Positions 3,553 through 61,566 of a stretch of DNA of 64,000 nucleotides are shown in pieces (the first letter of the stretch is position 1; every line of letters starts with the position of its first letter). The notes beneath the pieces were generated by a model. It did no database searches. It saw only the letters and a program-made list of their open reading frames with translations, and had not been told where the DNA came from. The DNA comes from Mobula hypostoma (lineage: Eukaryota), in contig NC_086097.1 of assembly GCF_963921235.1 (NCBI RefSeq), positions 9,176,001 through 9,240,000 of the forward strand. Reading direction: 5' to 3'. Position numbers and translations under genes: made by a program.

Positions 3553-3745
3553 GGAAATGAATAAATAGTTGATGTTTTGGGCTGAGACACTTCTTCAGGA
3601 CTTGAGATCTTCTTCAGGTTTTGAAGAAAGGTCTCGGCTCAAAACGTCGATTGCTTATTCATTTCCAGAGGTGCTGTCTAACCTGCTGAGTCCTTCCAGC
3701 ATTTTGTACGTATTGCTCAGGATTTCCAGCATCTGCAGCATTGCT
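3553..3745. mobile_element. Fold-back Penelope-tail derivative with two degenerate hammerheads
   Basis: 3553-3600 and 3619-3666 are imperfect inverted repeats of the hammerhead-bearing tail; both cores are mutated (GAAAC to AAAAC). Confidence 0.75.
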
Positions 3746-3956
3746 TGTGTTCATGTTGTTGACAAATTTTCCAGCAATTGTAAGACAACTTTTGATAGAA
3801 ACTGATTTGAGGAATCAAACCAAGGGCAGTATAATGGCTCTAACTCAAAAAGGCAATTCAGCTGGCACAGACATATTGGACAAAAGGGACAGTGTCCATC
3901 ATCTACGGCTCTGTGATAACAGGTGTAGCCACACTATAGTAAATAATTGAAATCTT

Positions 3957-4462
3957 CATAGTAGTCATAGTCATAGTCATACTTTATTGATCCCAGGGGA
4001 AATTGGTTTTCGTTACATGCATCATAAATAATTAAATAGTAATAAAACCATAAATAATTAAGTAGTAATATGTAAATTATGCCAGGAAATAAGTCCAGGA
4101 CCAGCCTATTGGCTCAGGGTATCTGACCCTCCAAGGGAGGAGTTGTAAAGTTTGATGGCCACAGGCAGGAATGACTTCCCATGACACTCTGTGCTGCATC
4201 TCGGTGGAATGAGTCTCTGGCTGAATGTACTCCTGTGCCCACCCAGTACATTATGTAGTGGATGGGAGACATTGTCCAAGATGGCATGCAACTTGGACAG
4301 CATCCCCTTTTCAGACCCCACTGTCAGAGAGTCCAGTTCCATCCCCACAACATCACTGGCCTTACGAATGAGTTTGTTGATTCTGTTGGTGTCTGCCACC
4401 CTCAGCCTGCTGCCCCAGCACACAACAGCAAACATGATCGCATTGGCCACCACAGACTCGTA
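3957..4462 (-). mobile_element. Rex1/Babar-type LINE 3' fragment
   Basis: ORF 4106-4453 VANAIMFAVVCWGS...INKLIRKASDVVG...KSFLPVAIKLYNS is a typical post-RT C-terminus; (GACTAT)n tail at 3957-3980. Confidence 0.7.
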
Positions 4463-4499
4463 GAAATTAAAACAAGGGGATAGCTGAAATTAAGACTAA

Positions 4500-4855
4500 G
4501 GAATCAGACTGCATTTGGGGTATTATGAGCAGTTTTGGGTGCCTTATCTAAGAAAATATTTGCTGGCATTGGAGAAGATCCAGAGGTGGTTCACAAAATT
4601 GACCCTGGGAATGAATAGATTAACATACAAGGAGCATTTGATACTTTGGGCCTTTACTCACTAGAGCTTAGATGAACGAGGAGGAACATCATTGAAACAT
4701 ATTGAATATTGAAAGGCCTAGATAGAGTAGATGTGGAGAGGATGTTTCCAATCATGGGTGAATCTCGGATGAAAGAACACAGCTTCAGAATACAAGGACA
4801 TCCCATTAGAAGAGAGATGAGGAATTTCATTATCCAAAAAGGGTAGTGAAATGTT
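4500..4855 (+). mobile_element. Degenerate CR1 ORF2 3' fragment
   Basis: Similar to the CR1 ORF2 C-terminal DNA at 35900-36290 (ccttatctaagaaaa...gctggcattggagaagatccagagg). Confidence 0.7.
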
Positions 4856-5239
4856 AATTCTGCTTCTTTCTTCTCAGAGATTTTATAAATTATTGGGTCG
4901 TTTCAGCATTCTTTGATTCTTATCTTGGCCAATATTATACCCTGACAGAAACTTTAAACATTCATGAATAGGGAAAAGTAATGATGATGGAAGTTGTTGA
5001 TCACACCAGGCAGATGGTGAATGTTCGCTCAACAACAGTTGCTAAATATTCGATGTTACTTGAAATTCCTTGCTAAAACTGGGTTTTAAAATGTTACCAT
5101 ACACGTGGAAGTTTTAAAAGCTAGACTCCAATATCCAATACAAGTATAATTACTTACCTTAATGATATATATTATTTTGAGAGCAGTGCAAGTACAATAT
5201 TCCACTATTTTGCGTAAATCGTTGAATCTGTATATTGTG

Positions 5240-5418
5240 GAAGGAGGGACTCAGCAGGACAGGCAGCATCTATGGAGAAGAGTAAACAGTCGATGTTTCG
5301 GGCCAGGACCCTTCATCAGGTTTACTCTTTTTCATAGACGCTGCCTGGCTTGCTGAATTCCTCTAGCATTTTGTGTGTATTTCTTTGATTTCCAGCATCT
5401 GCAGATTTTCTCTTGTAT
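5240..5418. mobile_element. Fold-back Penelope-tail derivative; minus-strand hammerhead core at 5287-5320
   Basis: Minus strand reads CTGATGA-agggtcctggccc-GAAAC-ATC-gactg; the helix I 5' partner is lost at the inversion junction. A plus-strand tail arm follows. Confidence 0.75.
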
Positions 5419-5573
5419 TGTGGAGGGAGGTCATTTGGCCTGTTAAGCCAATGCTGAATGCGTGCAAGAATGACTTCTTCATTGTCCTCAAATGTTCTTG
5501 CTTCTTTTAGAGTCATAGAGTCATAGAGTCATAGAAAAGTACAGCACAGAAACAAGCCCTTTGACCCATCCAT

Positions 5574-7680
5574 GAGACCATTAGACCATAACATATAGGA
5601 GCAGAAGTAGGCCATTCAGCCCATCAAGTCTGCTCCGCTATTCATTCATGGGCTGATCCAATCCTTCCAGTCATCCCCACTCCCCTGTTTTCACCCCATA
5701 CCCTTTGATGCCCTGGTTAATCAACAACCTATCTATCCCTGTCTCAAATACACATATTGACTTGGTCTCCACAGCAACTCACAGCAACAAATTCCACGGG
5801 TTTACCACCCTCTGACTAAAGTAATTTCTCCTCATCTCAGTTCTAAGAGGACGCCCTTCAATCCTGAAGTCATGTCCTCTTTTCCTAGAATCAGAGATGG
5901 CAACAACATATTTGCCAATCTGTAGCTGAATTTCAAGATCCTCCATTTTATCCAAGGTTGTCAAGCCGAGGAGTGGTAATGGGGGACAAGCTCCCACTAC
6001 CTAAAAGTGCTCCTCACGGCATGTGCCTCAAATAGCCTCTGACAACCAAGTCCAACTCCTGGCCTTCTCATGTGGCTTAGCCTCTAAGCCCGGCGGAACT
6101 GTTTCTACTGACAGGAGAAGGGGCGAAGGCGGGTCCTGGCACCTTAAAACCAGTGCTTCGGGTAGATGGAGCTCGTCAGCCTGGGAAGGCAGTCCATCTA
6201 AGAGAGGGAAAACTCTGATTTCAAACCTCTGCTGCCTTGCAGCCATACCCACTCATGGGAAAGGCTTCGGGAGTAAACCCTGAGGACAAATCCAGAGCTG
6301 GAGTCCCTAAGGCAGTCTAACGTTGCCTTCAGCCTCGCCCTGGGAACTCCTGCGATGACACTGGTGCCAAGCTGTATCGGCCCTTGCCCTTCCCTTGGAC
6401 AACGTCGGTAGTGTGGAGAGGGGAGACTTGCTGCATGGACAACCACCGGTCTTCCATACAACCTTGCCCAAGGCTGCACCCTGGAGAGGACACTCCAGCG
6501 ACGGCACAACATGAAACAAGACTTTCCAGGTGCAGATCCATGGTCTTATGAGAGTAACAGATGCCTCCACCACCACCACCACCATTCCTTATGTTACATG
6601 CATTCAAATACAACACTCTCAGTCCAGTATTTGTTGCTTTCTGTTTTAACTGCACCATGCCTCTATTGCCCTGTAACTCATGCTACTGGCTTTGATTAAG
6701 CCTCATCTCCTGCCTATTCTTTCTACAATCTCTGTTGCACACTATCCTTGATTTATTTCTGTTTTCCCCCTCCTCAGCCCTATCACTCCGGTTCTCATCC
6801 CCCTGCCAAATTAGTTTAAACCCTCCCTAACAGCTCTATTAAATGTGCCCGCTAGGATATTGGACCCGTTTGGGTTCAGGTGTAACCTGTCCTTTTCATA
6901 CAGGTCGTACCTCCCCCAGAAGAGTCCCCAGTGATTCAGGAATCTGCATCCCTGCCCCCTACACCAGTCTCTCAGCCACATCATGCTTTTCTTGCACTCG
7001 CTAGCACGTGGCACAGGCAGCAATCCTGAGATTACTACCTTAGAGATCCTGCCTTTCAGCTTCCTACCTAACTCCCTGAATTCTCTCTTCAGGACCCCCT
7101 CCTTTTTTCTACCTATGTCATTGGTACCAACGTGTACCAAGACTTCTGGCTGTTCACCCTCTCCCTTCAGAATACTCTGCACCCGATCCGTACCCTGGCT
7201 CCTGGGAGGCAATGCACCATGCGGGTATCTCTATCAGGCTCACTGAACCTCCTGTCTATTTTCCTCACTATGGAATCCCCTATGACTACCAGATTCCTCA
7301 TCTTCCCCTTTCCCTTCTGCACAACGGAACCAGGCTCGATTGGGTCAGAGACCTGGTTGGCGTGGTCATCCTCTGTCAGGTCACGCCCCTCAACAGCATC
7401 CAAAAGGAGATAACAATTACTGAGGGGGATGGCCACAGTGGTGTTTCTACTATCTTTCCCTCACTTCTCTGACCATCACCCACTTATCTAACTCCTGCAG
7501 CCCCGGGGTGACTAACTCCCTGTAGATCTTATCTATCTCCTGCTCACTCTCCCTAATAAGCTGTAGGTCATCGAGCCGCAGCTCCAGATCCCTAACACAG
7601 TCTCTTCGGAGATGCATCTCGGTGCACCTGGTGCAGATGTGGCCATCTGTGAGACTGGAAGTTTCCCTGGATTCTTCCAC
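5574..7680 (-). mobile_element. Internally deleted CR1 (ORF1 remnants, ORF2 N-terminus fused to 3' end), interrupted by an insertion at ~5953-6584
   Basis: ORF1 SGNH/esterase motifs VVIGDSIVR, VHCLPGARV, VLVHVGTNDI, DRLHLN (6811-7436) and zinc-finger/coiled coil (7450-7680). ORF2 start LRVLYLNACNIRN / KMEDLEIQLQIGKYVVAI is joined directly to the C-terminal RGHDFRIEG...FSQRVVN. Confidence 0.8.
5953..6584 (+). mobile_element. Non-autonomous RTE-related element with (CAC)n tail
   Basis: Related copies at 26341-27265, 33061-34190 (minus), 51085-51548 and 54495-54650 (minus). The 3' end ccaggtgcagatccatggtc...gagagtaacagatgcc resembles RTE-clade 3' ends. Confidence 0.6.
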
Positions 7681-8170: not shown

Positions 8171-8947
8171 GTGGAGACCTCTGTTTTCTCCGTCCTTTTT
8201 GTCTGGGAACTCAAATATAAAGCTACAAATTTGCTTATATTTGTCACGTGCATCAGAGCATACAGTGAAATGTCATTTGTGTTAATGTCCCACACAGTCC
8301 GAGGATGTGCTGGGGGCAGCCTGCGAGTGTCGCCATACTTCTGGAATTAAGGTAGCATGGACACAACTTGCTTACTCATACTGACCTGTACATTGAAGGA
8401 AACGTTCCAGCCCACTGAATCTGTAATCGCAGAGTAATCTTATCAATTTCCTTCCTGCAGTTACAAGCACTTCGTTGTCCAGCCTGAGGGACCCCTTGAC
8501 AATGAAAGAAAAATCGAGATTAATGGCCTATGTAAGAGGGAAGGGTTAGATTGATCTTATAGTAGGTTAAAAGGCCTGTACAGCACCATGGGCCGAAGAG
8601 CCTGTGTTGTGCTTTACTGTTCCATGTCCTCTTACATAAGTAATGTCAGTAAACATTTCTAACACAAAGCAACGCAGCTTGCTTATACAAATAACAGTTG
8701 ATGCTGGTTCAGTCCAAGATTTCTTATGGTTTTGTAACATGAGGATTTAAGCATTATGAGCCAAAGGTGGATAAATAGACTAAGATCCAAATTCTCACAG
8801 CTGTTATATCTTTCCTTAGCTGAATGAGTTTTGGAAGTTTAGAAACCATTAGTTTCTATATTCCAGCACACATTCCCATGAGATTGAAACCATTAAATTT
8901 CTATCCATTAAGGACTCTTGGAGTTGACTATCATCCTATTGGCCTGG

Positions 8948-10719
8948 CGTATAGTCTGGCGTACTGACCTCTACCTTGCCGAGGCACAGCGACAACTCGC
9001 GGATACCTCCTCTTATTTACCCCTCGATCGTGACCCCACTAAGGAGCACCAGGCCATTGTCTCCCACACCATCACCGACTTTATCCGCTCAGGGGATCTC
9101 CCATCCACTGCTACTAACCTTATAGTTCCCACACCTCGCACTTCCCGTTTCTACCTCCTACCCAAGATCCACAAACCTGCCTGTCCTGGCCGACCTATTG
9201 TCTCAGCTTGCTCCTGCCCCACCGAACTCGTTTCTGCATACCTCGACACTGTTTTATCACCCCTTGTTCAATCCCTTCCGACCTATGTTCGTGGCACTTC
9301 TCACGCTCTTAAACTTTTCGATGATTTTAAGTTCCCTGGCCCCCACCGCTTTATTTTCACCATGGATGTCCAGTCCTTATATACTTCCATCCCACATCAG
9401 GAAGGTCTCAAAGCTCTACGCTTCTTTTTGGATTCCAGACCTAATCAGTTCCCCTCTACCACCACTCTGCTCCGTCTAGCGGAATTAGTCCTTACTCTTA
9501 ATAATTTCTCCTTTGGCTCCTCCCATTTCCTCCAAACTAAAGGTGTAGCTATGGGCACCCGTATGGGTCCTAGCTATGCCTGCCGTTTTGTTGGGTTTGT
9601 GGAACAATCTATGTTCCGTGCCTATTCTGGTATCTGTCCCCCACTTTTCCTTCGCTACATCGATGACTGCATTGGCGCTGCTTCCTGCACGCATGCAGAG
9701 CTCGTTGACTTTATTAACTTTGCCTCCAACTTTCACCCTGCCCTCAAGTTTACCTGGTCCATTTCCGACACCTCCCTCCCCTTTCAAGATCTTTCTGTCT
9801 CTGTCTCTGGAGACAGCTTATCCACTGATGTCTACTATAAGCCTACTGACTCTCACAGCTATCTGGACTATTCCTTTTCTCACCCTGTCTCTTGCAAAAA
9901 CGCCATCCCCTTCTCGCAATTCCTCCATCTTCGCCGCATCTGCTCTCAGGATGAGGCTTTTCATTCTAGGACGAGGGAGATGTCTTCCTTTTTTAAAGAA
10001 AGGGGCTTCCCTTCCTCCACTATCAACTCTGCTCTTAAACGCATCTCCCCCATTTCACGTACATCTGCTCTCACTCCATCCTCCCACCACCCCACTAGGA
10101 ATAGGGTTCCCCTGGTCCTCACCTACCACCCCACCAGCCTCCGGGTCCAACATATCATTCTCCGTAACTTCCGCCACCTCCAACGGGATCCCACCACTAA
10201 GCACATCTTTCCCTCCCCCCCTCTGCATTCCGCAGGGATTGCTCCCTACACAACTCCCTTGTCCATTCGTCCCCCCCATCCCTCCCCACTGATCTCCCTC
10301 CTGGCACTTATCCGTGTAAGCGGAACAAGTGCTACACATGCCCTTACACTTCCTCCTTTACCACCATTCAGGGCCCCAAACAGTCCTTCCAGGTGAGGCA
10401 TCACTTTACCTGTGAGTCGACCAGGGTGATATACTGCGTCCGGTGCTCCCGATGTGGCCTTTTATATATTGGTGAGACCCGACGCAGACTGGGAGACCGC
10501 TTTACTGAACATCTACGCTCTGTCCGCCAGAGAAAGCAGGATCTCCCAGTGGCCACACATTTTAATTCCACATCCCATTCCCATTCTGACATGTCTATCC
10601 ACGGCCTCCTCTACTGTAAAGATGAAGCCACACTCAGGTTGGAGGAACAACACCTTATATTCCGTCTGGGTAGCCTCCAACCTGATGGCATGAACATCGA
10701 CTTCTCTAATTTCCGCTAA
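8948..10719 (+). pseudogene. Penelope RT-GIY-YIG polyprotein, N-truncated, one frameshift near 10215
   Basis: RT motifs FYLLPKIHKP, GRPIVS, FTMDVQSLYTSIP, GVAMGTRMGPSYA, RYIDD, YYKPTDSHSYLDY. After a frame change in the poly-C tract the reading continues GTYPCKRNKCYTC...VIYCVRCSRCGLLYIGET...EH...HFN...GMN to the stop at 10717-10719. The ORF-track start at 8918 lies in flanking DNA. Confidence 0.92.
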
Positions 10720-11011
10720 GGCCCCACCTCCCCCTCGTACCCCATCTGTTACTCATTTTTATGCACACATTCTTTCTCTCACTCTCCTTTTTCTCCCTCT
10801 GTCCCTCTGAATATACCTCTTGCCCATCTTCTGAGTCACCCCCCCCTGTCTTTCTTCCTAGACCTTCTGTCCCATGATCCTCTCGTATCCCCTTTTGCCT
10901 ATCACCTGTCCAGCTCTCGGCTCTATCCCTCCCCCTCCTGTCTTCTCCTATCATTTTGGATCTCCCCCTCCCCCTCCAACTTTCATATCCCTTACTCACT
11001 CTTCCTTCAGT

Positions 11012-11049
11012 TAGTCCTGACGAAGGTTCTCGGCCTGAAACGTCGACTG
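11012..11049 (+). ncRNA. Minimal type-I hammerhead ribozyme
   Basis: tagtc-CTGACGA-aggttctcggcct-GAAAC-GTC^gactg: helix I tagtc/gactg, helix II agg/cct, loopless palindromic helix III (ACGT). Predicted cleavage after 11044. Confidence 0.85.
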
Positions 11050-11533
11050 CACCTCTTCCTATAGATGCTGCCTGGCCTGCTGCGTTCACCAGCAACTTTG
11101 ATGTGTGTTGCTTGAATTTCCAGCATCTGCAGAATTCCTGTTGTTTGCATCCTATTGGCCTGTTCCCCTTAACTGTTTGTAAACACTCCTGATCTCCTAT
11201 TCACCTCATCATACCTTTATATAATCCAGGTACAATAGATCTGGCCTTAGGGCCTGGATTATGGTATTAATGACATACAAAATAAAGTGGAGATTATTTG
11301 ATGATTCCTTTTCAAGTACAGATGTAAATAATCTGGAATGTCCTTCCCTGGAATGTCAAATGGTTTCCTTGTATGATATAATAGATTCTTGATCTCACAG
11401 TCTATCTCGTTACAATCTTGCACTTTGTGTTAATCTGCTCTGCACTTTCCCTGTAGCTTTTACACTTTATTCTGCACTCTTACTGTTTTGCCTTCTTTTA
11501 CATTGATGCACTGTATGAACAGTATGCAAAACA

Positions 11534-11780
11534 TAAACGCAAGAGATTCTGCGATGCTGGGGAAAAAACAGAGCTACACACACAAGACACTGAAGGAGCT
11601 CGGTGGATCAGGCAGCATCTATGGAAATGAATAAACTGTCAACACTTCAGTCTGAGACCCTTCATCAGGACTGGCAAGGAAGGGATGAACTCGCCAGAAT
11701 AAAAAGATGGGGGAGGGGAAGGAGGACTAGCCAGAAGATGATAGGTAAAGCCAGGTTGGTGGAGAAGAAGGAATCTAAAA
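11534..11780 (-). mobile_element. Older Penelope-tail derivative, degenerate hammerhead
   Basis: Minus strand cagtcCTGATGAagggtctcagactGAAGTgttgacag; tail homologous to 30440-30550. Confidence 0.7.
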
Positions 11781-14485: not shown

Positions 14486-15235
14486 CAACACACACAAAAT
14501 GCTGGAGGAACTCAGCAGGTCAGTTGGCATCTATGGAAAAGAGTACAGTTGACATGTCAGACTAAGACCCTTCATCAGGACTGAGAAGGAAGGGGGGAGA
14601 TGCCAGAATAAAAAGGTGTGGGGAGGGGAAGGAGGGTGGCTGGAAGGTGATCGGTGAAGCCAAGATGGAAAGATCGAAGGCTGGAGAGGAACGATTCTCA
14701 TTCTCCTTCCGAAGTGTCCATCCCTGACCTCCTTTTTTGCCAAGTTGAGGTCACCTTCAGGGTGAAGGAGCAACACCTTATATTCCTTCTGGCTAGCCTC
14801 AAATCTGATGGCATGAATAGCTATTTCTCTTTCTGGTGAACAAATTACATACTATCACCCCCTTCCTCTATTCCCCACTTTGACCTTTCACTTCTTCTCA
14901 CTTGCCTATTACTTCCCCTGGGTCCTCTCCTCCTTCCCATTTTCCTATTGTCCACTCTCCTCTCCCATCAGATTCCTTCTTCTACAGCTCTTGACTTTTC
15001 CCACCCAACTGGCTTCAACTATCACCTTCCAGTTAACTTCTTTCCCCTCCTCCCACCTTTTTATTCTGGCGTTACCCCTTCACCTTTCCTTCTCAGTCCT
15101 GAAGAAGGGCCTTGGCCTGAACCATCAACTGTTTACTCATTTCCATAGATGCTGCCTGACCTGCTGAGTTCCTCCAGCATTTTGTGCATGTTGTTTTAGA
15201 TTTCCAGTACCTACAGATATTCTCATGTTTGTGAT
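14486..15235. mobile_element. Fold-back Penelope derivative (older subfamily): minus tail arm + plus GIY-YIG C-terminus and tail
   Basis: VTFRVKEQHLIFLLASLKSDGMN is homologous to ATLRLEEQHLIFRLGSLQPDGMN. Degenerate hammerheads at ~14546-14583 (minus) and ~15094-15131 (plus). Confidence 0.8.
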
Positions 15236-16346: not shown

Positions 16347-16550
16347 AAACACACGAGGTTCTGCAGATGCTGGAAACCCTGAGCCACATACACAAAATAT
16401 TGAGGAATACAAGAATTCAGGCAGTACCTATGGAGGGCAATAAACAGTCGACATTTCAGGACATGACGAAGGGTCTTGATCCAAAATATTGATTGCTTAT
16501 TCCTCTCCATAGATGCTATCTGACTTGCTGAATATACAAGTTTCTCTTCA
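16347..16550. mobile_element. Fold-back Penelope-tail derivative, degenerate
   Basis: Minus arm ...taaacagtcgacatttcagg joined to plus arm tgacgaagggtcttgatccaaaat...agatgct. Confidence 0.7.
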
Positions 16551-21892: not shown

Positions 21893-22012
21893 AACACGAG
21901 GAAATCTCTTACTAGCTCTCCTTTCGATTAGTCCTGACGAGGGGTCTCAGCCCGAAACGTCGACTGTACCTCTTCCTAGAGATGCTGCATTCACCAGCAA
22001 CTTTTATTGTGT
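21893..22012 (+). mobile_element. 120-bp Penelope-tail insertion with its own 14-bp TSD
   Basis: TSD aaattgttgtctca at 21879-21892 and 22013-22026. Confidence 0.88.
21929..21966 (+). ncRNA. Minimal type-I hammerhead ribozyme
   Basis: tagtc-CTGACGA-ggggtctcagccc-GAAAC-GTC^gactg. Confidence 0.85.
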
Positions 22013-23075: not shown

Positions 23076-24016
23076 TAAGACTATTGTTATAGGTGCTGTG
23101 TATTGTTTCCCAGTTACATTAGAGTCAGCCATAATTGGTTATTCCAAAGATTTGAGAAAGTGGTGTTGCCTTCTGGTAAGACAACGCATATTGCCCATTT
23201 TAGCCGGATGGCTTAAACAGTGCAGTCCAAATGGTAATAATGTTCCCATAATGATTGGAAACTGAGGGTTCCAGGAATTTGATTCAGTGGCATTAGATAC
23301 AACCCTAGAGTTGTATGCCATTCAGGGGATCCTAGATTTATTATGAATGACACAATTTCTTTTTGCATATATTGGAAATCTCTCTGCCTTCACATTTCAC
23401 CTTTTGTGAAAGTACAATTGATTGCTCGTGAAGGGTGTTGGATCTGAAACATTGATTGTGTTCCTCTTCCGCAGACCTGACCTGACCTTCTAAGTGCTTC
23501 CGGAATTTTCTGTTTTTGCTTGCAGATGATTTCTGTTTCTTCTATATTATCCTTTACTCCCTGACTGTGTCTCTGTCTCCCCTAATCACCTTATGTCTCT
23601 CTCCCACCTTGCTGCTATCAACACTGCCAAGCCTGTTCTCAGGATGTGGGAGTGCACATCTCACACAATATCTCATAGTCCCTCAACACATTCCAAAATA
23701 TCAGGAAATCTCACTAATGCCTTTACTTTCTGAGAAGGCTGAAGAGAGCTGGACTATGCACATCAATATTCATGACATTCTGCACATGCGGAGTAGAAAG
23801 CATCCTAACCAGTTGCATCAATGCATGGTATGGAAACTGCACAGCAGTGGACAGGAAGGCTCAACAAAGCTGCCTAATGCATCACCCACAACAATCTACC
23901 ACCATCAAGGACTTATATACAGAAAGATACTGGAAAAAGACCAGTAACATCATGAAAGATTCTGTCCACCCTGCTCATGGCCTGTAGAACCACTACCATC
24001 AGGGAGGAAGCTTTGT

Positions 24017-27737: not shown

Positions 27738-27920
27738 AACACACATAAAACGCTGGAGGAACTCAGCAGTCCGGGAGCATCTATGGAAGTGAATGAGCAG
27801 TCGACATTCAACTCTTCTTCAAGCCAGTTTATTTAGTTTCATAGACGCTGCATCACCAGCTGAGTTCCTTAGCTGTGTGTTGCTCTGGATTTCCAGCATC
27901 TGCAGAATCTCTCATCTTTT
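27738..27920. mobile_element. Fold-back Penelope-tail derivative, hammerhead mostly deleted
   Basis: Inverted arms gctggaggaactcagc...gcatctatggaa / ttcatagacgctgc...gctgagttcct. Confidence 0.7.
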
Positions 27921-27984: not shown

Positions 27985-29480
27985 GAATGATGCCGTATAC
28001 CAATCTCGCACTCAACATCAGCAAAACCAAACAGCTGAACGTTGACTGCAGGAGGAAGAAGCTAAAGGTTCACGGGACAGCCCTTTGGGGGATTGGAAGG
28101 TGGAGAGGGTCAGACGCCTTAAATATAAAACACAGGAGATTCTGCAGACACAGATGCCCTGATGAAGAGTCTCAGCCCCAATCATTGACTTTTTATTCCT
28201 TTTCATAGACGCTGCTTGGCCAGTTGAGTTCCTCCAGCATTTTGTGTGTGTTGCAATAACTTTAAAGTCCTTGGCATTATCATATCAGCAGATCTATCCT
28301 GGCATCAGCACGTCAATGCCATTGCAAAGAAGGTGATGGCCTCTATTTTCCTCGAAGCTTGTGTAGATTCAGCATGTCATCTAAATCTTTGACAAACTTC
28401 TGTGGCTGCACAGTGGAGAGTATCCTGACTGGTTGCATCACAGCCTGGTATGGAAACATCAATGCCCAGGGGCAGAAAAGTGGTGGTCACAGCCCAGTGC
28501 TTCACAGGGGAAGTCTTACCACCGAGCTCATTGGCATGGAGTGCTGCAACAAGGAAGCTGCATCCCACCAAAGACCCACACCATCGAGGCCATTCTCTCT
28601 TCCCTCTACCAACATCAGGCAGGAGGTTCAGAGGACAGGTTCCGCACTGTTAGAGTGGATTTTTTTTGGGTAGATGATTTGTTTACACTTAAATGACTTT
28701 GGCCACCAGACTTCTATTTTAACTGTTTGACAAAGGACTGTGGATTGAGTCCACCACAACGGGCTTCCTAAAAGGTGTAAATATCAGATGCTTCTGGCGC
28801 CTGATGCTGTAGTTTCGAAGACAGTACTATCGATAGATTATAAATAATAATTGTCTTCTATGTTAGCATGTAAAATGCCAAATAAATGTATTGTGGATTG
28901 AACTAAAGGCTGTGGATACCAACCCAGACATGTTGGCGTTGGAAGGAAAGGATGAAATCCGAAGGTGTGATGTTTGTATGTAACTTCAATAGGAAGCATT
29001 GTCCATGCATTGTCTGTAACTTTTTAAGTAGCGATTGCCTTTGTGTTTAGCATATAAATATCGAGTCCTCATTTAGCTAGCAGACCTTTCTGCAGAAAGC
29101 ATCTTCGTCCGTTAAGATGTCTGCTGTACCTTGTTGTGTTGAATAAAGAAGCTGCTTTGTATCTACCAGTGACTCTGTCTCTCCGGTAACTTCATCCAAA
29201 CTGCCATGGATAACTTCACTCACCTCAACTCTAAATTTGAATATTTTCAAGGACTCCTCAGCTCATGTTCTCAGTATGATTTATTTTTCTATTTGCACAA
29301 TTCGTCTTTTTCACATTGGTGTTTTGTCAGTCTTTGTTCATTTATAATTTATTTTTTTCCATAAATTCTACTGCATTTCTTTGTTTTCTTCCAAATGCCA
29401 ACAAGAAAATAAATCTCAAGATAGTATATGGCAACATATACATGCTTTGATAATAAACTTACTTTAACTTTGACTTTGAA
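27985..29480 (+). mobile_element. Rex/Babar 3' fragment, interrupted by a Penelope tail (28128-28256) and a probable LTR
   Basis: NLALNISKTKQL and LTNFCGCTVESILTGCITAWYGN motifs; (actttg)n tail near 29460-29480. Confidence 0.75.
28648..29206 (+). mobile_element. Probable solo LTR
   Basis: TG...CA ends with a partial inverted repeat (tggat/atcca); TATAAAA at ~29053 and AATAAA at ~29142; interrupts a Rex fragment. No clean TSD. Confidence 0.5.
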
Positions 29481-29792: not shown

Positions 29793-30447
29793 GAAATCAC
29801 TGATACAGTCTTGATTTCATTTAAGAAGATTTAAACAGTGTACTCTGTGGCAGGGCCTGACTCCGGTGTTTATGAAGACACCAGAAGTAACTGTCAGCTT
29901 CTCATGGTGACACCTTCCTGTGCCAGTAGCCTGACTCTCAATATCATTGCAAATTCAGGACTATAGTCCGGGACTGTAATAGGTCTAAGGCCAGGTACAG
30001 AGTTGCAGGGGGTTGTTTGAATAGCGAGTGATTTCTCCTGTAACTACGGCTCCCACATTGCCAACAGAACAAAATCAGCAATTGCTGGAATGACTGTCAC
30101 AACCAAAAGGAATGTGACTCTTTATTTCTGATTAATATTTGCATAAGGATAATAATACAGTAATATTATTAGGTCAACATCATTGTAAGATAGAAATTTA
30201 TCTGTTCATTAGTGATATCATTGCTTTTTTAATAAATGTAAATTTTCAGAGTGGTTTAATGTTTCTTTTTAATTTAATATTTCAGTTCAAGCAAAGTAGG
30301 TGTCTTTTCCCTCTGGTTCAATCTCCTCTCCTTTCAGATTCCTTCTGCACCAGCTTTTGACCTCTCTCACCTTCTGCTAACACCTTCCAGCTCGCCCATT
30401 TCCTCTCCCCCACACATTATTATTCAGGCATTTTTCCCCTTCCTTCT

Positions 30448-30485
30448 CAGTCCTGATGAAGGATCTTGGCCCGAAACGTCGACTG
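30448..30485 (+). ncRNA. Minimal type-I hammerhead ribozyme (older subfamily tail, ~30305-30550)
   Basis: cagtc-CTGATGA-aggatcttggccc-GAAAC-GTC^gactg with a perfect 5-bp helix I. Confidence 0.82.
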
Positions 30486-33206: not shown

Positions 33207-33743
33207 AACACACATAAAAGTTGCTGGTGAACGCAGCAGGCCAGGCGGCATCTCTAGGAAGAGGTACAGTCGACGTTTCAGGCTGAGACCCTTCGTCAGG
33301 ACCAACTGAAGGAAGAGCTAGTAAGAGATTTGAAAGTGGGAGGAGGAGGGGGAGATCCAAAATGATAGGAGAAGACAGGAGGGGGAGGGATGGAGCCAAG
33401 AGCTGGACAGGTGATTGGCAAAGGGGATATGAGAGGATCATGGGACAGGAGGCCCAGGGAGAAGGAAAAGGGGGAGGGGGGAAAAAACCCAGAGGATGGG
33501 CAAGGGGTATAGTCAGAGGGACAGAGGGAGAAAAAGGAGAGAGAAAAAGAATGTGTGTATATAAATAAATAACGGATGGGGTACGAGGGGGAGGTGGGGC
33601 ATTAGCTGAAGTTAGAGGAGTCAATGTTCATGCCATCAGGTTGGAGGCTACCCAGACGGAATATAAGGTGTTGTTCCTCCAACCTGAGTGTGGCTTCATC
33701 TTTACAGTAGAGGAGGCCGTGGATAGAGATGTCAGAATGGGAA
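33207..33743 (-). mobile_element. Penelope 3' fragment (GIY-YIG C-terminus + tail) with 14-bp TSD
   Basis: TSD tgatgaatccaaaa (33193-33206 / 33744-33757); HSHSDISIHGLLYCKDEATLRLEEQHLIFRLGSLQPDGMN. Confidence 0.92.
33267..33304 (-). ncRNA. Minimal type-I hammerhead ribozyme
   Basis: Minus strand tggtc-CTGACGA-agggtctcagcct-GAAAC-GTC^gactg. Confidence 0.82.
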
Positions 33744-38938: not shown

Positions 38939-39671
38939 TTCCCTTGGACAACATCGGTGTCGGGGAGAGTGGAGACTTGCAGCATGGGCAACTGCTGATC
39001 TTCCATACAACCTTGCCCAGGCCTGCGCCCTGGAGACTTTCCAGGCACAGATCCATGGCCTCGGAAGACTAACAGAAGCCTTAAATAATCTTGTTTAGCA
39101 GCCTCATATGTGGAACCTTGTCAAAGGCCTTCTGAAAATCCAAATATACAACATCCACTGCATCTCCCTTGTCTAGTCTACTTGTAATTTCCTCAAAAAA
39201 TTGTGATAGGTTTGTCAGGCAGGATTTTCCTTTAAAGAATCCATGCTGAGTTCTGCCTATCTTGTTATATGCCTCTAGGTACTCTGTAACCTCATCCTTG
39301 ACAATCGACTCCCACAACTTTCCAACCACCGATGTCAAGCTAACAGGTCTATAATTTCCTTTTTGCTTCCTTGCCCCCTTCTTAAATAGCGGAGTGTGGG
39401 CATATGGGCATGTACAAACTTAGATGGGGCAGCCAATGCTTCTTATAATTTTAGAATTGTTTATTTTTGATTGAGTTCTAACTTAGATATTATTCTAAAT
39501 AACTCTGTTGTTGTATTAATTTTAACATTGTGTTTTAGTAATTAAATTAGCAGTATGCTTTTTTTACACTGAATGGAGTAGCACTACAATCTTGTTGTCC
39601 TCAGCAATGACAATAAAGCTCGAAGTTTCTAGTAAGTTTTCTTTCTCTTTCTTTGTCTATTAGTACATAGA

Positions 39672-45049: not shown

Positions 45050-46180
45050 AGGAGGGAAGGATAGTCAGATGATAGGGTAAAATTGCAGTCAGAGGGTTGA
45101 AGTGTAACATGGGGGCAAAATCAAAAACTGTGATGAATACAGGACTGATGGTGTTATATTTGAATGCATGCAGTATTGGAAATAAAGTAGATGATCTTGT
45201 AGCACAGTTACAGATTGGCAGGTACAATGTTGTGGGTATTACTGAGTCACGGCTGAAAGAAGATCATAGCTTAACATCCAAAGACAGACCTTGTTTTGAA
45301 AGGACAAGCAGGAAGGCAGAAAGGGTGGGGTGGCTTTGTTGTTAAAAAATTATATCAAATCCTTAGAAAGAGGTGACGCAGGATCAGAAGATGTAGAAAC
45401 CTTGTTGATAGGATAAGAAGCCCCTGATGGGAGCTATTTACAGGCCTCCTAATAGTAGCCAGGATGTGGGACAGAAATTACAAAGGGAGATTGAAAAGGC
45501 ATGTAAAAAGGGCACTGGGGGAAAGCCAATTCTGGCTTAAGTGTGTAATGAAACAGGTTTGATTAGGAAGTTGAAGGTAAAAGAACCCTTAGGAGGCTGT
45601 GATATAATGTGATAGAATTCATGGAGTTTTAGAAGGAGAAGATAAAGTCAGATGTGTCAGTATTACAATGGTGTAAAGGGCATTATAGAGGTTTGAGAAA
45701 GGAACTGGCCAAAGTTGAATGGAAGGACACATTAGAGGGGTTGGAGTTTCCAGGAGCAATTTGGAAGGCACAGGGTAGATACATCCCAAAGAAGAAAAAA
45801 TATACTAGAGATAGGATGATACAACCATGGCTGATGAGGCAAGTCAAGGACAGTATGAAAGGAAGAGAAATGGCATATAATAGAGCAAAAATTGGTGGGA
45901 AGTTAGAGGAATAGCAAGCTTTTAAAGAATAACAGAAAGCAACTAAAAAACATAAAGAGAGAAAAGATGAAATACGAAGGTAAGCTAGCCAGTAACGTAG
46001 AAGAGTAATGTTCGTCCTGACGAAGGGTCCCGGCCCGAAATGTCGACTGTACTTCTTCCTATAGATGCTGCCTGATTTGCTGGGTTCACCAGCATTTTGT
46101 GTGTGCGTTGCATGTTAAAGAGGATACCAATTTTGTTCTCAAATATATAAAGAGTAAAGAAGAAGTAAGAGCGGATAAAC
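45050..46180 (+). mobile_element. Degenerate CR1 ORF2 endonuclease fragment
   Basis: GLMVLYLNACSIGNKVDDLVAQLQIGRYNVVGITES; W.KGHYRGLRKELAKVEW; QPWL. Confidence 0.8.
46012..46049 (+). ncRNA. Minimal hammerhead ribozyme, variant
   Basis: gtc-CTGACGA-agggtcccggccc-GAAAT-GTC^gac; C15.2 to T (still a wobble pair), helix I shortened. Confidence 0.6.
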
Positions 46181-46553
46181 AGTCATTTTGGGCTGAGACC
46201 TTTACTTGATGCCCTCCATAGATGCTGCCTGATTTGCTGGGTTCACCAGCATTTTGTGTGTGCGTTGCATGTTAAAGAGGATACCAATTTTGTTCTCAAA
46301 TATATAAAGAGTAAAGAAGAAGTAAGAGCGGATAAACAGTCATTTTGGGCTGAGACCTTTACTTGATGCCCTCCATAGATGCTGCCTGATTTGCTGGGTT
46401 CACCAGCATTTTGTGTGTGCGTTGCATGTTAAAGAGGATACCAATTTTGTTCTCAAATATATAAAGAGTAAAGAAGAAGTAAGAGCGGATAAACAGTCAT
46501 TTTGGGCTGAGACCTTTACTTAATGCCCTCCATAGATGCTGCCTGATTTGCTG
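46061..46553 (+). repeat. 157-bp tandem repeat, 3 full near-identical units + partial
   Basis: Unit starts atagatgctgcctgatttgctg at 46061, 46218, 46375 and 46532. Confidence 0.95.
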
Positions 46554-46611
46554 AGTTCCTCTGGCAGTTTGACTGTGTTGTTCAAGATATTTAGCATCTG
46601 CAAAACTTCTT

Positions 46612-52640: not shown

Positions 52641-52655
52641 ATTTGAGTGATGGTG

Positions 52656-57157: not shown

Positions 57158-57179
57158 AGATGCTGCCGGCTCCTTGAAC

Positions 57180-57615: not shown

Positions 57616-57667
57616 GTTTAAAACTTCACTGTTCACTACCAGACATCTGCTGTATTGTCTGAAGTTT

Positions 57668-58465: not shown

Positions 58466-58735
58466 TCAGAGAGAGAGGGAGAGGGAGGAGAAGATGGTGG
58501 CGCGATGCTGCGCGCGCGGCTGTTCCGAATGAATATCGTATGTGTAACTAGGACGACGTGCACAATCTGGATTTGATGGAGACAGCCGGTGTAACTTCTG
58601 AAATGCCTGCTTCACTGCTGCTGCTACTGTGCGATCGAGAATCTCCGAAGACGAAGGCCCCAATTCCTCGGCTTTGCCTTTTGTCTGTTGCCGGGGCCGG
58701 GGTCGAAGCGCTCAGCAGAGATGGTGCCCGGTGCC
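58466..58735 (+). mobile_element. CpG-rich segment, probable 5'UTR of a non-LTR retrotransposon
   Basis: GA-rich start, YY1-like aagatggtgg, locally high CpG against a CpG-poor background; no linked ORF. Confidence 0.4.
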
Positions 58736-60104
58736 AAACCCCTCAATTGCCTATCCAAATCCATTTTGAGATTATTCTCTCAACTGCCTATTTAGATCCA
58801 TTCTGAAAGCATTGGTTAATTCTCTTCCCACAACATTTACAGGCAGTGAATTTTAAATCATAACCACTTTGAGTTTAACAAAAAGCTTCTAGTTTCTTCC
58901 CCCTTGTATATTTTACCCAAAACATCAAGTTCTCTTGACTTTGAACTTGTCCACCGATGAGTAAAGCTTCCTTCTATTTATCCTTTCTAAACCAGTGGTT
59001 CATTTCCATTAGTCAAAAGCACGGTTTCAATTTGATGATAGAAATGTAGAATTTATTAAAACTTTCATGCCAGAGCAATACACACATAATGCTAAAGGCA
59101 TTCCAGGCAGCATCTATGGAAATTAATAAACAGTTGATGTCTCAGGCCGAGATCTTTGATCGAGACTGGAAAGGAAGGAAAAAGAAGAACCCAGTGTAAT
59201 GAATACAGATTAGGATTCCAATTTGTCAAAATGTGTATCACTTTATAAAAGATCTATTAATTCAGAAATATTGTTCAAATTTAAAATGGTGGATTTCCAC
59301 AAAAATACTCTCTTCTCATGATGGTGGATTTCTCACTTTCAAGGACTCTTCATCTCATGTTCTCGATATCTATTGCTTATTTATTTATTATTATTTTTTC
59401 TTTTTGTATTTGCACAGTTTGTTGTCTTTTGCACAGTGGTTGATGCCCTCTCTGTTGGGTGAGGTCTTCCATTAATTCGATTGTGTTTCTTGTATTTACT
59501 GTGAATGCCCATGAGAAAATGAATTTCAGGGTTGTACGTGGTGACATATATGTACCTGAATAAGAAACTTACTTTGAATTTTGAACTTCAACTTTGAAGG
59601 GATTTATTAGCAAGGCATTATATTGATTGGACAGTCAGTAAATTTATTCCAACAATTAATCCCTGCTGGCTCCATCATCCACTCAGTATGGTAATATCAA
59701 AGGCACGAAACCAGACAACGAATGTGAATTGGAATGGAAAGCATTGAAAAGCACAATCAGTTTGATTATGATTGGTGCCCACTGTAAAGCAGCTCACAGT
59801 TTGACAGAATTTACTAGTTACCTTTAAATGGATATGAAGAAGATGCACTGTACTTTAATGCAATCATTTCGTTTTTCTTTATAAATAAAGAAATATTCTA
59901 TAGCAGCTGGAGATCAACATTCAGGCTCTCCAGAAATCAATTTGTTTTATCATCTTGCAGTTTTGCTTTGATGAAATGGATTGAGACAATCACATGAAAG
60001 CCTTTTTAATCTTAAACAACCATTTCCCTATTAAAGTAAACACAAAAATCTTAAATGAATCAAAGATCGCCTATGTTAGTCCTTCAGCAAATGTGTATGT
60101 CAAC

Positions 60105-60312
60105 GCATTGGCTCAGCTGCTGGTATTCTTGTTTTTGAGTCAGGAGTTTGTGATCAGATGTTAAGCCAAGACACCAAGTCAGTGCTTCCATGTTGTACAG
60201 AGATGGTGCAGCATTGTTGAATAACCGTCTTCTCTTGAAATATTAAATGGAGATCTCTTCAACTCTGTTTGGTTGCATTCAAAGAACCCATGACACTAAT
60301 TGAAATAGCAGA
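60105..60312 (+). mobile_element. Ancient Deu-type SINE remnant
   Basis: tRNA-like head (ggctcag...gagtcaggag) and aaagaacccatgacactaattgaa resembling the Deu-domain aaagatcccatggcactattt; highly diverged. Confidence 0.4.
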
Positions 60313-60640
60313 ATCAGGATCTGGGATATGGCAACAAATTTGTTGTTTTGCGACAGCAGTGCACAGCAATGCATAATAATAAAAATTATGTAAATTATAA
60401 TAAGAAATATATATCAAAGTTCAAAGTACATTTATTATCGAAGAATGTAAAATGTTCCACAACTTGTGATTTGTCTGCTTACAGTTGTCATGAAACAAAG
60501 AAATGTAAAAGAACCTATTTAAAAAAAAGATATTCAAACACCCAAACAACAGGAATTCTGCAGATGCTGGAAATTCAAGTAACACACATCAAAGTTGCTG
60601 GTGAACGCAGCAGGCCAGGCAGCATCTCTAGGAAGAGGTA

Positions 60641-60678
60641 CAGTCGATGTTTCAGGCCAAGACCCTTCGTCAGGACTA
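60641..60678 (-). ncRNA. Minimal hammerhead ribozyme (AUC variant)
   Basis: Minus strand tagtc-CTGACGA-agggtcttggcct-GAAAC-ATC^gactg; the G to A change breaks the ACGT palindrome. Confidence 0.7.
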
Positions 60679-61528
60679 ACTGAAGGAAGAGTGAGTAACA
60701 GATTTGAAAGTTGGAGGGGGAGGGGGAGATCCAAAATGTTAGGAGAAGACAGGAGGGGGAGGGATGGAGCCAAGAGCTGTACAGGTGATTGGCAAAAGGG
60801 ATACGAGAGAATCATGGGATAGGAGGTCCGGGAAGAAAGACAAAGGTGGGGGGGAACCCAGAGGATGGGCAAGGGATATATTCAGAGGGACAGAGGGAGA
60901 AAAAGGAGAGTGAGAGAAAGAATGAGTCGGCTGGGGTGATGTACTGCGTCCGGTCCTCCCGATGTGGCCTTTTATATATTGGCGAGACCCGACGCAGACT
61001 GGGAGACCGCTTTGCTGAACACCTACGCTCTGTCTGCCAGAGAAAGCAGGATCTCCCAGTGGCCACTCATTTTAATTCCACATCCCATTCCCATTCTGAC
61101 ATGTCTATCCACGGCCTCCTCTACTGTAAAGATGAAGCCACACTCAGGTTGGAGGAACAATACCTTATATTCCGTCTGGGTAGCCTCCAACCTGATGGCA
61201 TGAACATCGACTTCTCTAACTTCCACTAATGCCCCACCTCCCCCTCGTAGCCCATCTGTTACTTATTTTTATACACACATTCTTTCTCTCACTCTCATTT
61301 TTCTCCCTCTGTCCCTCTGAATATACCTCTTGCCCATCCTCTGGGTCCCCCCCCCCACTTCCTTGTCTTTCTTCCTGGACCTCCTGTCCCATGATCCTCT
61401 CGTATCCCCTTTTGCCTATCACCTGTCCAGCTCTTGGCTCCATCCCTCCCCCTCCTGTCTTCTCCTATCATTTTGGATCTCCCCCTTCCCCTCCAACTTT
61501 CAAATCCCTTACTCACTCTTCCTTCAGT

Positions 61529-61566
61529 TAGTCCTGACGAAGGGTCTCGGCCTGAAACGTCGACTG
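61529..61566 (+). ncRNA. Minimal type-I hammerhead ribozyme
   Basis: tagtc-CTGACGA-agggtctcggcct-GAAAC-GTC^gactg. Confidence 0.85.

What the first reader, a model, noticed from the sequence alone, without database searches (positions are those of the whole stretch)
3553..61566. Dense population of Penelope-derived minimal hammerhead ribozymes (about 17 copies in 64 kb)
Seen: the motif agtc-CTGANGA-helix II-GAAAC-GTC-gact recurs throughout. Cores are intact at 11012, 21929, 30448, 33267(-) and 61529; single CpG-type variants are at 5287(-), 46012 and 60641(-); eroded copies are near 3570(-), 3620, 11640(-), 14546(-), 15094, 16462, 23425, 28158 and 59131(-). Helix III has no loop and is the palindrome ACGT. 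Established: Penelope-like elements carry minimal type-I hammerheads thought to act as dimers. Inference: this genome carries a very large, repeatedly active retrozyme-like family of self-cleaving units in at least two age classes (CTGACGA/gcgttcacc versus CTGATGA/gagttcctcc tails). If the window is intronic, sense copies could trans-dimerise and cleave host pre-mRNA.
Basis: partly seen in the sequence, partly recalled or inferred. Interest (0 to 1): 0.75.

Follow-up and report, generated by a model that had tools for sequence, protein, structure and literature searches.

The report
Penelope retroelement hammerhead motifs, massively amplified
The repeated motif is the small hammerhead ribozyme sequence carried near the 3' end of a Penelope-like jumping gene that has multiplied to well over 100,000 copies in this genome; the kind is already described, and only its scale stands out.

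Summary
All 17 listed sites carry one homologous module of about 95 nt: a loop-less type-I hammerhead motif plus a conserved tail. I found 10 further partial pieces.

The modules are 3' ends of Penelope-like element (PLE) copies. One window copy (about 8951-11149, +) has a reverse transcriptase ORF, a GIY-YIG endonuclease and then the motif. A tandem copy elsewhere gives a 3512-nt unit. The optional 35-45 nt tail, 5' truncation and head-to-head inverted partners are all present.

Genome-wide there are 88,531 exact intact cores against 35 for the reversed control, and about 148,600 young-family tails. This is the minimal hammerhead of metazoan PLEs (Cervera and de la Pena 2014), so a new member of a known kind. 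The scan noted the same kind before on other DNA.

Cleavage is not shown:
- Rfam finds no hammerhead.
- No covariation is seen.
- Nearest-neighbour energies disfavour the active dimer.
- The dominant young variant has G10.1-U11.1.
- 5' ends of inserted copies do not peak at the cleavage site.
- No RNA evidence was usable.

The retrozyme and host pre-mRNA ideas are unsupported.

The parts
8951..11149 (+). 5'-truncated copy of the young Penelope-like element: RT, GIY-YIG, 3' UTR, hammerhead motif, tail, optional tail extension
   Evidence: ORFs; Pfam; aligned at 96.8% to locus L008 over 9883-11113 and to L005/L007 up to 11146-11149. The 5' limit is inferred: other copies match the ORF only from residue 14.
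8912..10396 (+). Reverse transcriptase reading frame (stop to stop, 494 aa); its last ~57 aa are out of frame
   Evidence: RVT_1 E 3.7e-6, 27.2 bits, below the 29.6 cut-off. Genome copies are 97-98% identical. Frames read.
10201..10719 (+). GIY-YIG endonuclease frame with a C-x4-C-x2-C linker (CKRNKCYTC), here in the -1 frame relative to RT at a C-run near 10225
   Evidence: PF01541 E 1.1e-4, 22.8 bits, above the 22.6 cut-off. Frames. In most genome copies this domain is in frame with RT.
11009..11049 (+). Hammerhead motif, core intact (helix II has G>T)
21926..21966 (+). Hammerhead motif, core intact, G10.1-C11.1 kept; short 111-nt copy
30445..30485 (+). Hammerhead motif of the older CTGATGA class, core intact
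33267..33307 (-). Hammerhead motif, core intact; part of a 541-nt young copy at 33207-33745(-)
61526..61566 (+). Hammerhead motif, core intact; part of a 704-nt young copy at 60923-61627(+) that ends without the tail extension
   Evidence: GIY-YIG remnant at 60789-61226
60543..60927 (-). 385-nt young copy, head to head with the copy at 60923-61627; motif at 60641-60681 has G16.2>A; carries the tail extension
5287..5323 (-). Older-class motif with G16.2>A, abutted by an inverted tail piece at 5320-5379(+)
46010..46049 (+). Motif with C15.2>T; followed by a 157-bp tandem array (46061-46558) of tail plus inverted fragment
3566..3653 (.). Head-to-head pair of eroded motifs: 3566-3606(-) and 3613-3653(+)
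11636..11676 (-). Eroded older-class motif
14546..14586 (-). Eroded older-class motif
15091..15131 (+). Eroded older-class motif
16386..16536 (.). Eroded motif at 16455-16495(+) with an overlapping inverted partner at 16465-16386(-)
23419..23458 (+). Eroded motif
27739..27873 (.).
28156..28251 (+). Eroded older-class module
59131..59171 (-). Eroded older-class motif

Best explanation
**What the repeats are.** They are the 3' terminal (pseudo-LTR) modules of Penelope-like retrotransposons with a Neptune-type linker. Each module carries a minimal type-I hammerhead motif with no helix III loop (ACGU palindrome).

**Layout of the unit.** In a tandem unit of 3512 nt, the predicted cleavage site lies about 600 nt after the ORF frame read in L016 and 61 nt before the first in-frame ATG of the next unit.

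**How copies arise.** Reverse transcription starts at either of two sites downstream of the motif, which gives ends with or without a 35-45 nt tail extension. Synthesis often stops early. Most copies are therefore short 3' stubs that still hold the motif, and many have an inverted partner. This is inferred from the anatomy and from Frangieh 2024.

**What selection acts on.** The dispersed copies decay neutrally, fastest at the four CpGs inside the motif. The motif is kept only in the master lineages (inferred).

**Cleavage.** If the ribozyme cuts at all, it would do so as a dimer on multi-unit element transcripts. The RNAs that were copied into the genome were mostly uncut. Self-cleavage of this variant is not shown; I put it at about 40%.
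For: - Motif and its excess over chance.
- RT plus GIY-YIG directly upstream.
- Tandem unit, and position of the motif relative to the ORF.
- Two 3' end classes, near +50 to +73 and near +102 to +115 from the cleavage site. This matches the optional 30-40 bp tail of PLEs and the two internal RT start sites (Frangieh 2024, PMC11167929, passages; Craig 2021, PMC8557442, passages).
- Inverted 5'-truncated partners: window pairs; 17 of 40 sampled 5' regions had an inverted piece at 90% identity or more.
- Scale: 88,531 exact CTGANGA-N13-GAAACGTC against 35 for the reversed control; 112,291 hits to the young 32-mer at up to 2 mismatches against 0; 148,620 hits to the young tail 32-mer against 0.
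- Recent activity: RT copies are 97-98% identical, and endonuclease-containing open frames of 950 aa or more occur in 5 of 150 scored hits, up to 1043 aa.
- No protection of the motif in situ: the motif 32-mer survives in fewer copies than the tail 32-mer.
- Master-level conservation: the HHR and tail blocks are 0.73-0.83 identical between three subfamilies, against 0.54-0.60 for the upstream 60 nt. Subfamilies differ at N7, in loop II and at 11.1 only.
- Uncut templates: copies run through the motif in tandems and 3' stubs. 5' ends lie at -36 to +19 with no peak at +1.
- The features Cervera and de la Pena 2014 (PMC4209133, parts 1-2 read) list for PLE min-HHRs are met, except G10.1-C11.1 in the young class.
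Against: - No Rfam hammerhead model matches, at gathering score over the whole window or at E up to 10 on 61480-61640. Those models expect a helix III hairpin (my understanding, not tested).
- RVT_1 scores below Pfam's cut-off.
- No covariation: on 25 distinct rows, 1 pair has a change on both sides, and 405 to 451 of 500 shuffles reach the observed values on every measure.
- The monomer MFE is not the hammerhead fold (z = 0.18).
- The dimeric hammerhead structure scores -12.9 kcal/mol. An extended duplex scores -32.7 and two monomers score -24.4. A competing pairing joins GACG (core positions 5-8) with CGUC (15.2-17).
- 55,017 of the 88,531 intact cores have C7 and U11.1, which loses the conserved G10.1-C11.1 pair.
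- The element's clade rests on a linker motif read by eye, not on a tree.
Confidence: 0.88

Rival explanations
1. The motif of the dominant young family no longer cleaves. It is kept as a structured RNA element: a rod in which helix I, GACG/CGUC and helix II stack. Such a rod could serve protein binding, or merely be tolerated. An attenuated ribozyme may even have helped the burst.
For: - U11.1 together with C7 in 55,017 of 88,531 intact cores.
- Energies favour the rod over the active dimer.
- 5' ends show no peak at the cleavage site.
- PLE hammerheads cleave poorly in vitro (PMC4209133).
- HHR mutants did not affect insertion in vitro, and no RNA-seq reads ended at the site in Anolis (PMC11167929).
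- 1 of 9 Xenopus dimer elements cleaved (preprint 10.64898/2026.07.22.740005).
- Naiads thrive without the motif (PMC8557442).
Against: - The unpaired core bases (CU, A9, GAAA) are kept across subfamilies that differ upstream. A mere stem would not require that.
- G10.1 itself is kept, and G-U still pairs.
- Nearest-neighbour energies ignore the tertiary core.
Confidence: 0.3
2. The copies are a non-autonomous retrozyme-like family. Tandem units would be cut by the hammerhead into monomers, circularised and re-inserted.
For: - Same-strand motif pairs 275-460 nt apart exist.
- Two loci (L016, L075) have a downstream partial copy starting at the same unit position, 3121, at about 89-90% identity. 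This hints at a short subfamily.
- Non-LTR retrozymes derive from PLE pLTRs (preprint).
Against: - The one such pair I read through, L075, is two adjacent independent 5'-truncated insertions of different age (98.4% and 89.9%), not identical tandem units.
- Copies end downstream of the motif, not at the cleavage site.
- No tandem array with intact cores occurs in the window.
- The family is autonomous.
Confidence: 0.08
3. Sense copies sitting in introns pair up and cut host pre-mRNAs, so the population acts on host gene expression.
For: Only the numbers: 88,531 intact cores in 3.48 Gb. Same-strand neighbours 1.5-4 kb apart occur in the window.
Against: - There is no evidence of cleavage at all.
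- Strand counts are even genome-wide: 56,123 against 56,168.
- The gene context of the window is unknown.
- In Xenopus, related elements are depleted from introns, which would fit a cost rather than a function (preprint).
Confidence: 0.03
4. The hammerhead resemblance is a chance feature of a repeat.
For: No Rfam hit and no covariation.
Against: - All core positions, the type-I order of helices, the extra base after A9 and the palindromic 15.2-16.2 pair are present together.
- The motif sits where PLEs of many phyla carry it (PMC4209133).
- Subfamilies vary only at permissive positions.
Confidence: 0.01

Closest known systems
Minimal hammerheads (min-HHR) in the pseudo-LTRs of metazoan Penelope-like elements (Cervera and de la Pena 2014, PMC4209133)
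   Same: - CUGANGA and GAAA boxes.
- Type-I order of helices.
- Short helix I of 4-5 bp.
- An extra base between A9 and 10.1.
- Palindromic 15.2-16.2 pair with no helix III loop.
- Location in the terminal repeat.
- Mostly single, truncated copies, some on opposite strands close together.
   Different: - Helix II here is 4 bp with a tetraloop, against 7-8 bp in the Schistosoma families.
- The dominant variant has G-U at 10.1-11.1.
- Variability is low and the population belongs to one lineage, whereas that paper stresses extreme variability.
- The number of intact cores is about ten times the ~9,000 (Xenopus) and ~4,000 (coelacanth) quoted there.
PAc, the Poseidon element of Anolis carolinensis (Frangieh et al. 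2024, PMC11167929; passages read)
   Same: - A tandem pLTR-ORF-pLTR locus.
- Two adjacent 3' end classes that define an optional tail.
- The tail overlaps the start of the ORF.
- Inserted copies derive from RNA not cut at the motif.
   Different: - In PAc the ORF starts at stem II, with the cut site 26 nt after the ATG. Here the first in-frame ATG is 61 nt after the cut site.
- The linker here has a C-x4-C-x2-C motif, which the literature assigns to Neptune/Nematis, not Poseidon (PMC8557442).
Non-LTR retrozymes of animals (Cervera and de la Pena 2020, PMC7229834, abstract only; Li et al. 2026 preprint)
   Same: A type-I hammerhead with a weak helix III, related to PLE terminal repeats.
   Different: Retrozymes are short non-coding tandem units, each with a motif, that give circular RNAs. 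The copies here are dispersed 3' stubs of a coding element, and I saw no such arrays.
Rfam Hammerhead_1 (RF00163) and other Rfam hammerhead families (family names recalled)
   Same: The catalytic core.
   Different: No match, even at E up to 10. The motif has no helix III hairpin.

Membership tests
PLE minimal hammerhead (min-HHR) | Core boxes C3-U4-G5-A6-N7-G8-A9 and G12-A13-A14, A15.1/U16.1, H17 | tested here: met
   Intact in 5 of 18 window copies that hold the motif part. 88,531 exact matches genome-wide against 35 for the control.
PLE minimal hammerhead (min-HHR) | Type-I order: open helix I, helix II closed by a loop | tested here: met
   AGUC/GACU plus one further pair; GGGU-CUCG-GCCY. 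88-91% of cells are paired in helices I and II on 25 distinct rows.
PLE minimal hammerhead (min-HHR) | No or minimal helix III, with palindromic 15.2-16.2 | tested here: met
   GAAA-CG-UC, that is ACGU with no loop.
PLE minimal hammerhead (min-HHR) | Unpaired base between A9 and 10.1 | tested here: met
   A in nearly all copies, G at 21929.
PLE minimal hammerhead (min-HHR) | Conserved G10.1-C11.1 pair | tested here: inconclusive
   C11.1 in 24,044 of 88,531 intact cores. C7 with U11.1 in 55,017. The older subfamilies meet the feature; the dominant young one has G-U.
PLE minimal hammerhead (min-HHR) | Compensatory changes in the helices between families | tested here: not met
   One pair has a change on both sides, and 451 of 500 shuffles reach that. 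Only one-sided changes are seen (C-G to U-G in helix I, G-C to G-U in helix II). The sample is one lineage.
PLE minimal hammerhead (min-HHR) | Self-cleavage, as a dimer | not testable with these tools
   Energy models disfavour the active dimer. No usable RNA data.
Penelope-like element | RT joined to a C-terminal GIY-YIG endonuclease | tested here: met
   GIY-YIG is above Pfam's cut-off. RVT_1 gives E 3.7e-6 to 3.6e-5, below its cut-off, with a YIDD box read by eye. Open frames up to 1043 aa contain the endonuclease domain.
Penelope-like element | Pseudo-LTRs from partial tandems, with the motif inside them | tested here: met
   In L016 the motifs are 3512 nt apart and flank a 935-aa frame. 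Tandem 5' regions also in L024, L036 and L057.
Penelope-like element | Optional 30-40 bp tail at an end | tested here: met
   Ends near +50 to +73 or near +102 to +115 from the cleavage site. Window examples: 61627 without the extension, 11149 and 60543 with it.
Penelope-like element | Inverted 5'-truncated copy next to the 5' end | tested here: met
   Window pairs at 3566/3613, 5287/5320, 16386/16455, 27739/27826 and 60543/60923. Also L017 and L018 and many of L019-L058.
Neptune/Nematis clade of PLEs | CX2-5CxxC zinc-finger-like linker between RT and EN | tested here: inconclusive
   CKRNKCYTC fits the pattern by eye. I made no phylogeny and no profile test.
Animal non-LTR retrozyme | Short non-coding tandem units, each with a type-I hammerhead | tested here: not met
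   No such array in the window. The one close same-strand pair read through is two separate insertions. The genome was not scanned for arrays.
Rfam hammerhead families | Score at or above the family's gathering threshold | tested here: not met
   0 matches in the window. No hammerhead family at E up to 10 on 61480-61640.

The most novel reading that the evidence does not exclude
The largest burst (about 150,000 copies) was made by a lineage whose hammerhead was weakened. It has G10.1-U11.1, plus C7, which lets GACG pair with CGUC. Self-cleavage would then be a cost to retrotransposition that this lineage escaped.

As a by-product, the genome holds tens of thousands of near-identical latent half-ribozymes. 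Same-strand pairs in long transcripts could still assemble into active dimers and cut them.
Probability: 0.1. Interest if true: 0.6.

Novelty: new member of a known kind. Interest (0 to 1): 0.3.

Why it matters
The role of hammerheads in Penelope-like elements is still open. The papers I read report low activity in vitro, no effect on insertion in vitro, and no cleaved ends in RNA-seq.

This genome offers a very large, young and nearly uniform population:
- 88,531 intact cores;
- open frames up to 1043 aa that contain the endonuclease domain;
- natural variants at 11.1 and N7 with known copy numbers.

That makes it a good system to ask whether cleavage helps or hinders proliferation, and to look for 5'-OH ends in vivo. 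For annotation, it shows that Rfam-based scans miss this whole class.

Tried and rejected
**1. Rfam.** No hit at gathering score, and no hammerhead family at E up to 10.

**2. Single-strand fold of 61520-61575.** It is not a hammerhead fold, z = 0.18.

**3. Covariation on 51 motif copies (25 distinct).** None beyond shuffles.

**4. Does cleavage define the 5' ends of insertions?**
- Three full-length copies start at -22, +18 and +81.
- In 40 sampled 5' regions, 16 gave no match. The direct-copy starts seen near the motif lay at -359, -278, -26, +60 and +144, with further short matches from about +240. Three to four regions ran on as tandems.
- Of 48 exact young tails in the first 3.27 Mb of contig C1, 27 had an intact core at the right offset. 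That figure is a hand cross-match of the lists.
- Of the other 21, I read 20 in 18 fetched stretches and the 21st in L076 (start near +19 by BLAST only). Two are duplicates of one event.
- Seven have a point-mutated motif.
- The rest start between about -25 and +19 (for example -25, -23, about -20, -15, -15, -11, -2, +1, +2 to +5, +7 to +9, +10, +19). Only one is compatible with +1.
- There is no peak at the site. These junction readings are by eye.

**5. Programmed frameshift between RT and EN.** The window copy and L015-L018 all have EN in the -1 frame at a C-run. That sample was biased by my query. With an EN-only query, 24 of 150 hits have 172-173 aa frames (hand count) and most are longer, up to 1043 aa. 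The frameshift therefore marks a subset, and I rejected the idea.

**6. RNA evidence.** No RNA holder is listed among 22 rows; all are contigs of guessed kind. Laying X1, X2, X9 and X19 gave no table of ends and nothing on cleavage. Contig loose ends at 61530, 61566 and 61626 only show that other subfamilies share the core and that the tail extension exists.

**7. Host gene context.** 35 ORFs of 110 aa or more gave only retroelement domains.

**8. A larger random sample of the genome.** A 40-kb sample gave 7 module hits.

**9. Literature.** Lunse et al. (RNA Biol.) is not held; I saw it only in a reference list. Searches for PLE or hammerhead amplification in cartilaginous fishes found nothing specific. 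The whale shark paper only lists Penelope as present.

**10. Earlier notes of this scan.** No note on this genome and no look-alike window by sequence.

Full report
**Observation**

The pattern CTGANGA-N(4-30)-GAAAC occurs 9 times in the window against 1.37 expected, and 0 of 100 shuffles reach 9. Seven of the nine share a 25-nt core.

Every one holds the same module:
- helix I 5' strand (c/u)AGUC;
- CUGANGA;
- one extra A;
- helix II GGGU-CUCG-GCCY;
- GAAA;
- C-G (15.2-16.2), U16.1, C17, then the predicted cut;
- GACUG;
- a variable 12-14 nt linker;
- a conserved tail of about 45 nt.

- Five cores are intact: 11012, 21929, 30448, 33267(-) and 61529.
- Three have one transition: 5287(-) and 60641(-) have G16.2>A, and 46012 has C15.2>T.
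- Nine are eroded.

A profile built from the 17 sites finds 27 hits. The ten additions are:
- two inverted partner pieces, 5320-5379(+) and 16465-16386(-);
- one unlisted head-to-head pair at 27739-27873;
- six fragments inside a 157-bp tandem array at 46061-46558. The array has 3.2 copies at 99% identity, and its units hold no intact core.

**What it is**

Directly upstream of the motif at 11012 lies a 494-aa frame with an RT signature and a YIDD box (RVT_1 E 3.7e-6, just below Pfam's cut-off). After it comes a 172-aa frame with a GIY-YIG domain above the cut-off. RT joined to GIY-YIG is the hallmark of Penelope-like elements (PLEs).

The window's own genome (G000, 3.48 Gb, 200 contigs) holds copies of the RT 97-98% identical to the window's. 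Locus L016 shows the full layout as a tandem:
- two motifs lie 3512 nt apart;
- the predicted cut site lies about 305 nt after the upstream RT-frame stop and 61 nt before the first in-frame ATG of the next unit.

Copies end in two ways. One class ends about 50-73 nt after the cut site; the other ends about 102-115 nt after it. The extra 35-45 nt are the first codons of the ORF. This is the optional tail of PLEs. Frangieh et al. 2024 (PMC11167929, passages) traced that tail to two internal start sites of reverse transcription.

Two further PLE marks are seen:
- 5' truncation;
- an inverted, 5'-truncated partner next to the 5' end, as described by Craig et al. 2021 (PMC8557442, passages). Window pairs lie at 3566/3613, 5287/5320, 16386/16455, 27739/27826 and 60543/60923. 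The same is seen in sampled loci.

The RT-EN linker reads C-x4-C-x2-C. The literature assigns that pattern to Neptune/Nematis. I did not test the clade further.

**Scale and age**

| Measure | Count | Reversed control |
|---|---|---|
| Exact CTGANGA-N13-GAAACGTC | 88,531 | 35 |
| Young 32-mer motif, up to 2 mismatches | 112,291 | 0 |
| Young 32-mer tail, up to 2 mismatches | 148,620 | 0 |
| Young 32-mer tail, exact | 60,472 | 0 |

With an endonuclease-only query, 5 of 150 scored hits have open frames of 950 aa or more, up to 1043 aa. The family is therefore recent and may still be active.

Density differs by region. The window has 27 module hits in 64 kb. An arbitrary 40-kb sample has 7.

Window copies of the young class are 91-95% identical to each other over 350-700 nt. 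The older class is about 75-86% identical to the young query. Further subfamilies exist, and they differ in loop II, N7 and 11.1.

**Is the motif under selection?**

Not in situ. The motif 32-mer, which has four CpGs, survives in fewer copies than the tail 32-mer, which has one. The erosion seen in the window is mostly at CpGs.

At the level of master lineages the answer is yes, though the evidence is modest. I compared individual copies of three subfamilies:

| Block | Identity between subfamilies |
|---|---|
| 41-nt motif | 0.75-0.83 |
| 45-nt tail | 0.73-0.79 |
| Linker | 0.63-0.67 |
| Upstream 60 nt | 0.54-0.60 |

The motif is thus conserved, but not clearly more than the tail, which has its own role. 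Subfamily differences inside the motif sit at N7, in loop II and at 11.1. All three are positions that tolerate change.

There is no compensatory covariation. On 25 distinct rows, one pair changes on both sides, and 405-451 of 500 shuffles reach the observed values. The sample is one lineage, so this says little either way.

**Does it cleave?**

This is not shown. Five points weigh against it:
- Rfam finds no hammerhead.
- The monomer does not fold as one.
- The dimeric hammerhead structure scores -12.9 kcal/mol for the young form. An extended duplex scores -32.7 and two monomers score -24.4. A competing pairing joins GACG (core 5-8) with CGUC (15.2-17).
- 55,017 of the 88,531 intact cores carry C7 and U11.1, and only 24,044 keep C11.1.
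- The genomic record shows uncut templates. Copies run through the motif, and 5' ends around it are spread from about -36 to +19 with no peak at +1.

This agrees with what I read in print:
- low activity in vitro (PMC4209133);
- no effect of core mutants on insertion, and no reads ending at the site in Anolis (PMC11167929);
- 1 of 9 Xenopus dimers cleaving (preprint 10.64898/2026.07.22.740005).

In favour of cleavage, the unpaired core bases are kept across subfamilies, and PLE hammerheads of other species do cleave as dimers according to those papers.

**Comparison and verdict**

This is the min-HHR of metazoan PLEs, described in 2014. All features that paper lists are met except G10.1-C11.1 in the dominant young class. 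The class has been reported in fishes, coelacanth, Xenopus and reptiles.

Earlier notes of this scan describe the same kind in other windows said to be from sharks, and judged it known (e1-7789389, e1-7790369, e1-7789493). None concerns this genome.

Two things are unusual here. The first is the size and uniformity of the population, about ten times the largest counts quoted in the 2014 paper. The second is that the burst was made by a variant with a weakened 10.1-11.1 pair.

I found nothing in print on this for cartilaginous fishes. However, one key paper (Lunse et al.) is not held, and I did not establish the organism.

The retrozyme reading and the host pre-mRNA reading have no support in what I could test.

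Noticed in passing
window 46061-46558: A 157-bp tandem array (3.2 copies, 99% identical). Each unit joins a PLE tail to an inverted, eroded motif fragment. It looks like a recent local duplication of a composite junction, not a ribozyme-bearing satellite.
   Followed up: partly
window about 10225; loci L015-L018: At a C-run between RT and endonuclease, the window copy and four other copies have the endonuclease in the -1 frame. With an unbiased query, 24 of 150 hits show this short frame (hand count) and most are in frame. It is therefore a common 1-nt variant of a subset, not a programmed frameshift.
   Followed up: yes
window 36044-39419(-), 43804-44193(-), 6811-7230(-): A different retroelement is present. 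There are LINE-type RT frames (RVT_1 E 1e-22 to 4e-10), and two frames with weak OSK / GDSL-lipase-like matches (below Pfam's cut-offs) of the kind seen in some LINE first ORFs. They coincide with a strong negative GC skew at 36-44 kb.
   Followed up: partly
L016:6257-6717 and L075:569-1068; window 33207-33745(-) and L017: Independent partial copies share the same 5' start. Unit position 3121 is shared by two loci, both about 89-90% identical to the young unit. Position 3036 is shared by two others. This may mark short non-autonomous subfamilies or preferred stop sites of reverse transcription.
   Followed up: no
L077 (C1:170463-170593) and L092 (C1:2960834-2960964): A tail fragment starting about 7-9 nt after the cut site has near-identical flanks at two places 2.8 Mb apart. 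The stub has been carried along by another repeat or by a segmental duplication.
   Followed up: no
L094, L078, L090, L083, L088 (contig C1): In short head-to-head pairs the junction often falls inside the motif. One pair is symmetric, at -23/-23. Another holds an inverted 11-nt piece of the core. The palindromes in and around the motif may favour snap-back or template switching during insertion.
   Followed up: partly
window 61530, 61566, 61626 in coded runs X1, X2, X9, X19: Contigs from runs labelled as at least four coded organisms hold this family. Loose ends begin exactly at the borders of the motif and at the tail-extension site. Related species thus seem to share the core while the flanks differ.
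   Followed up: no
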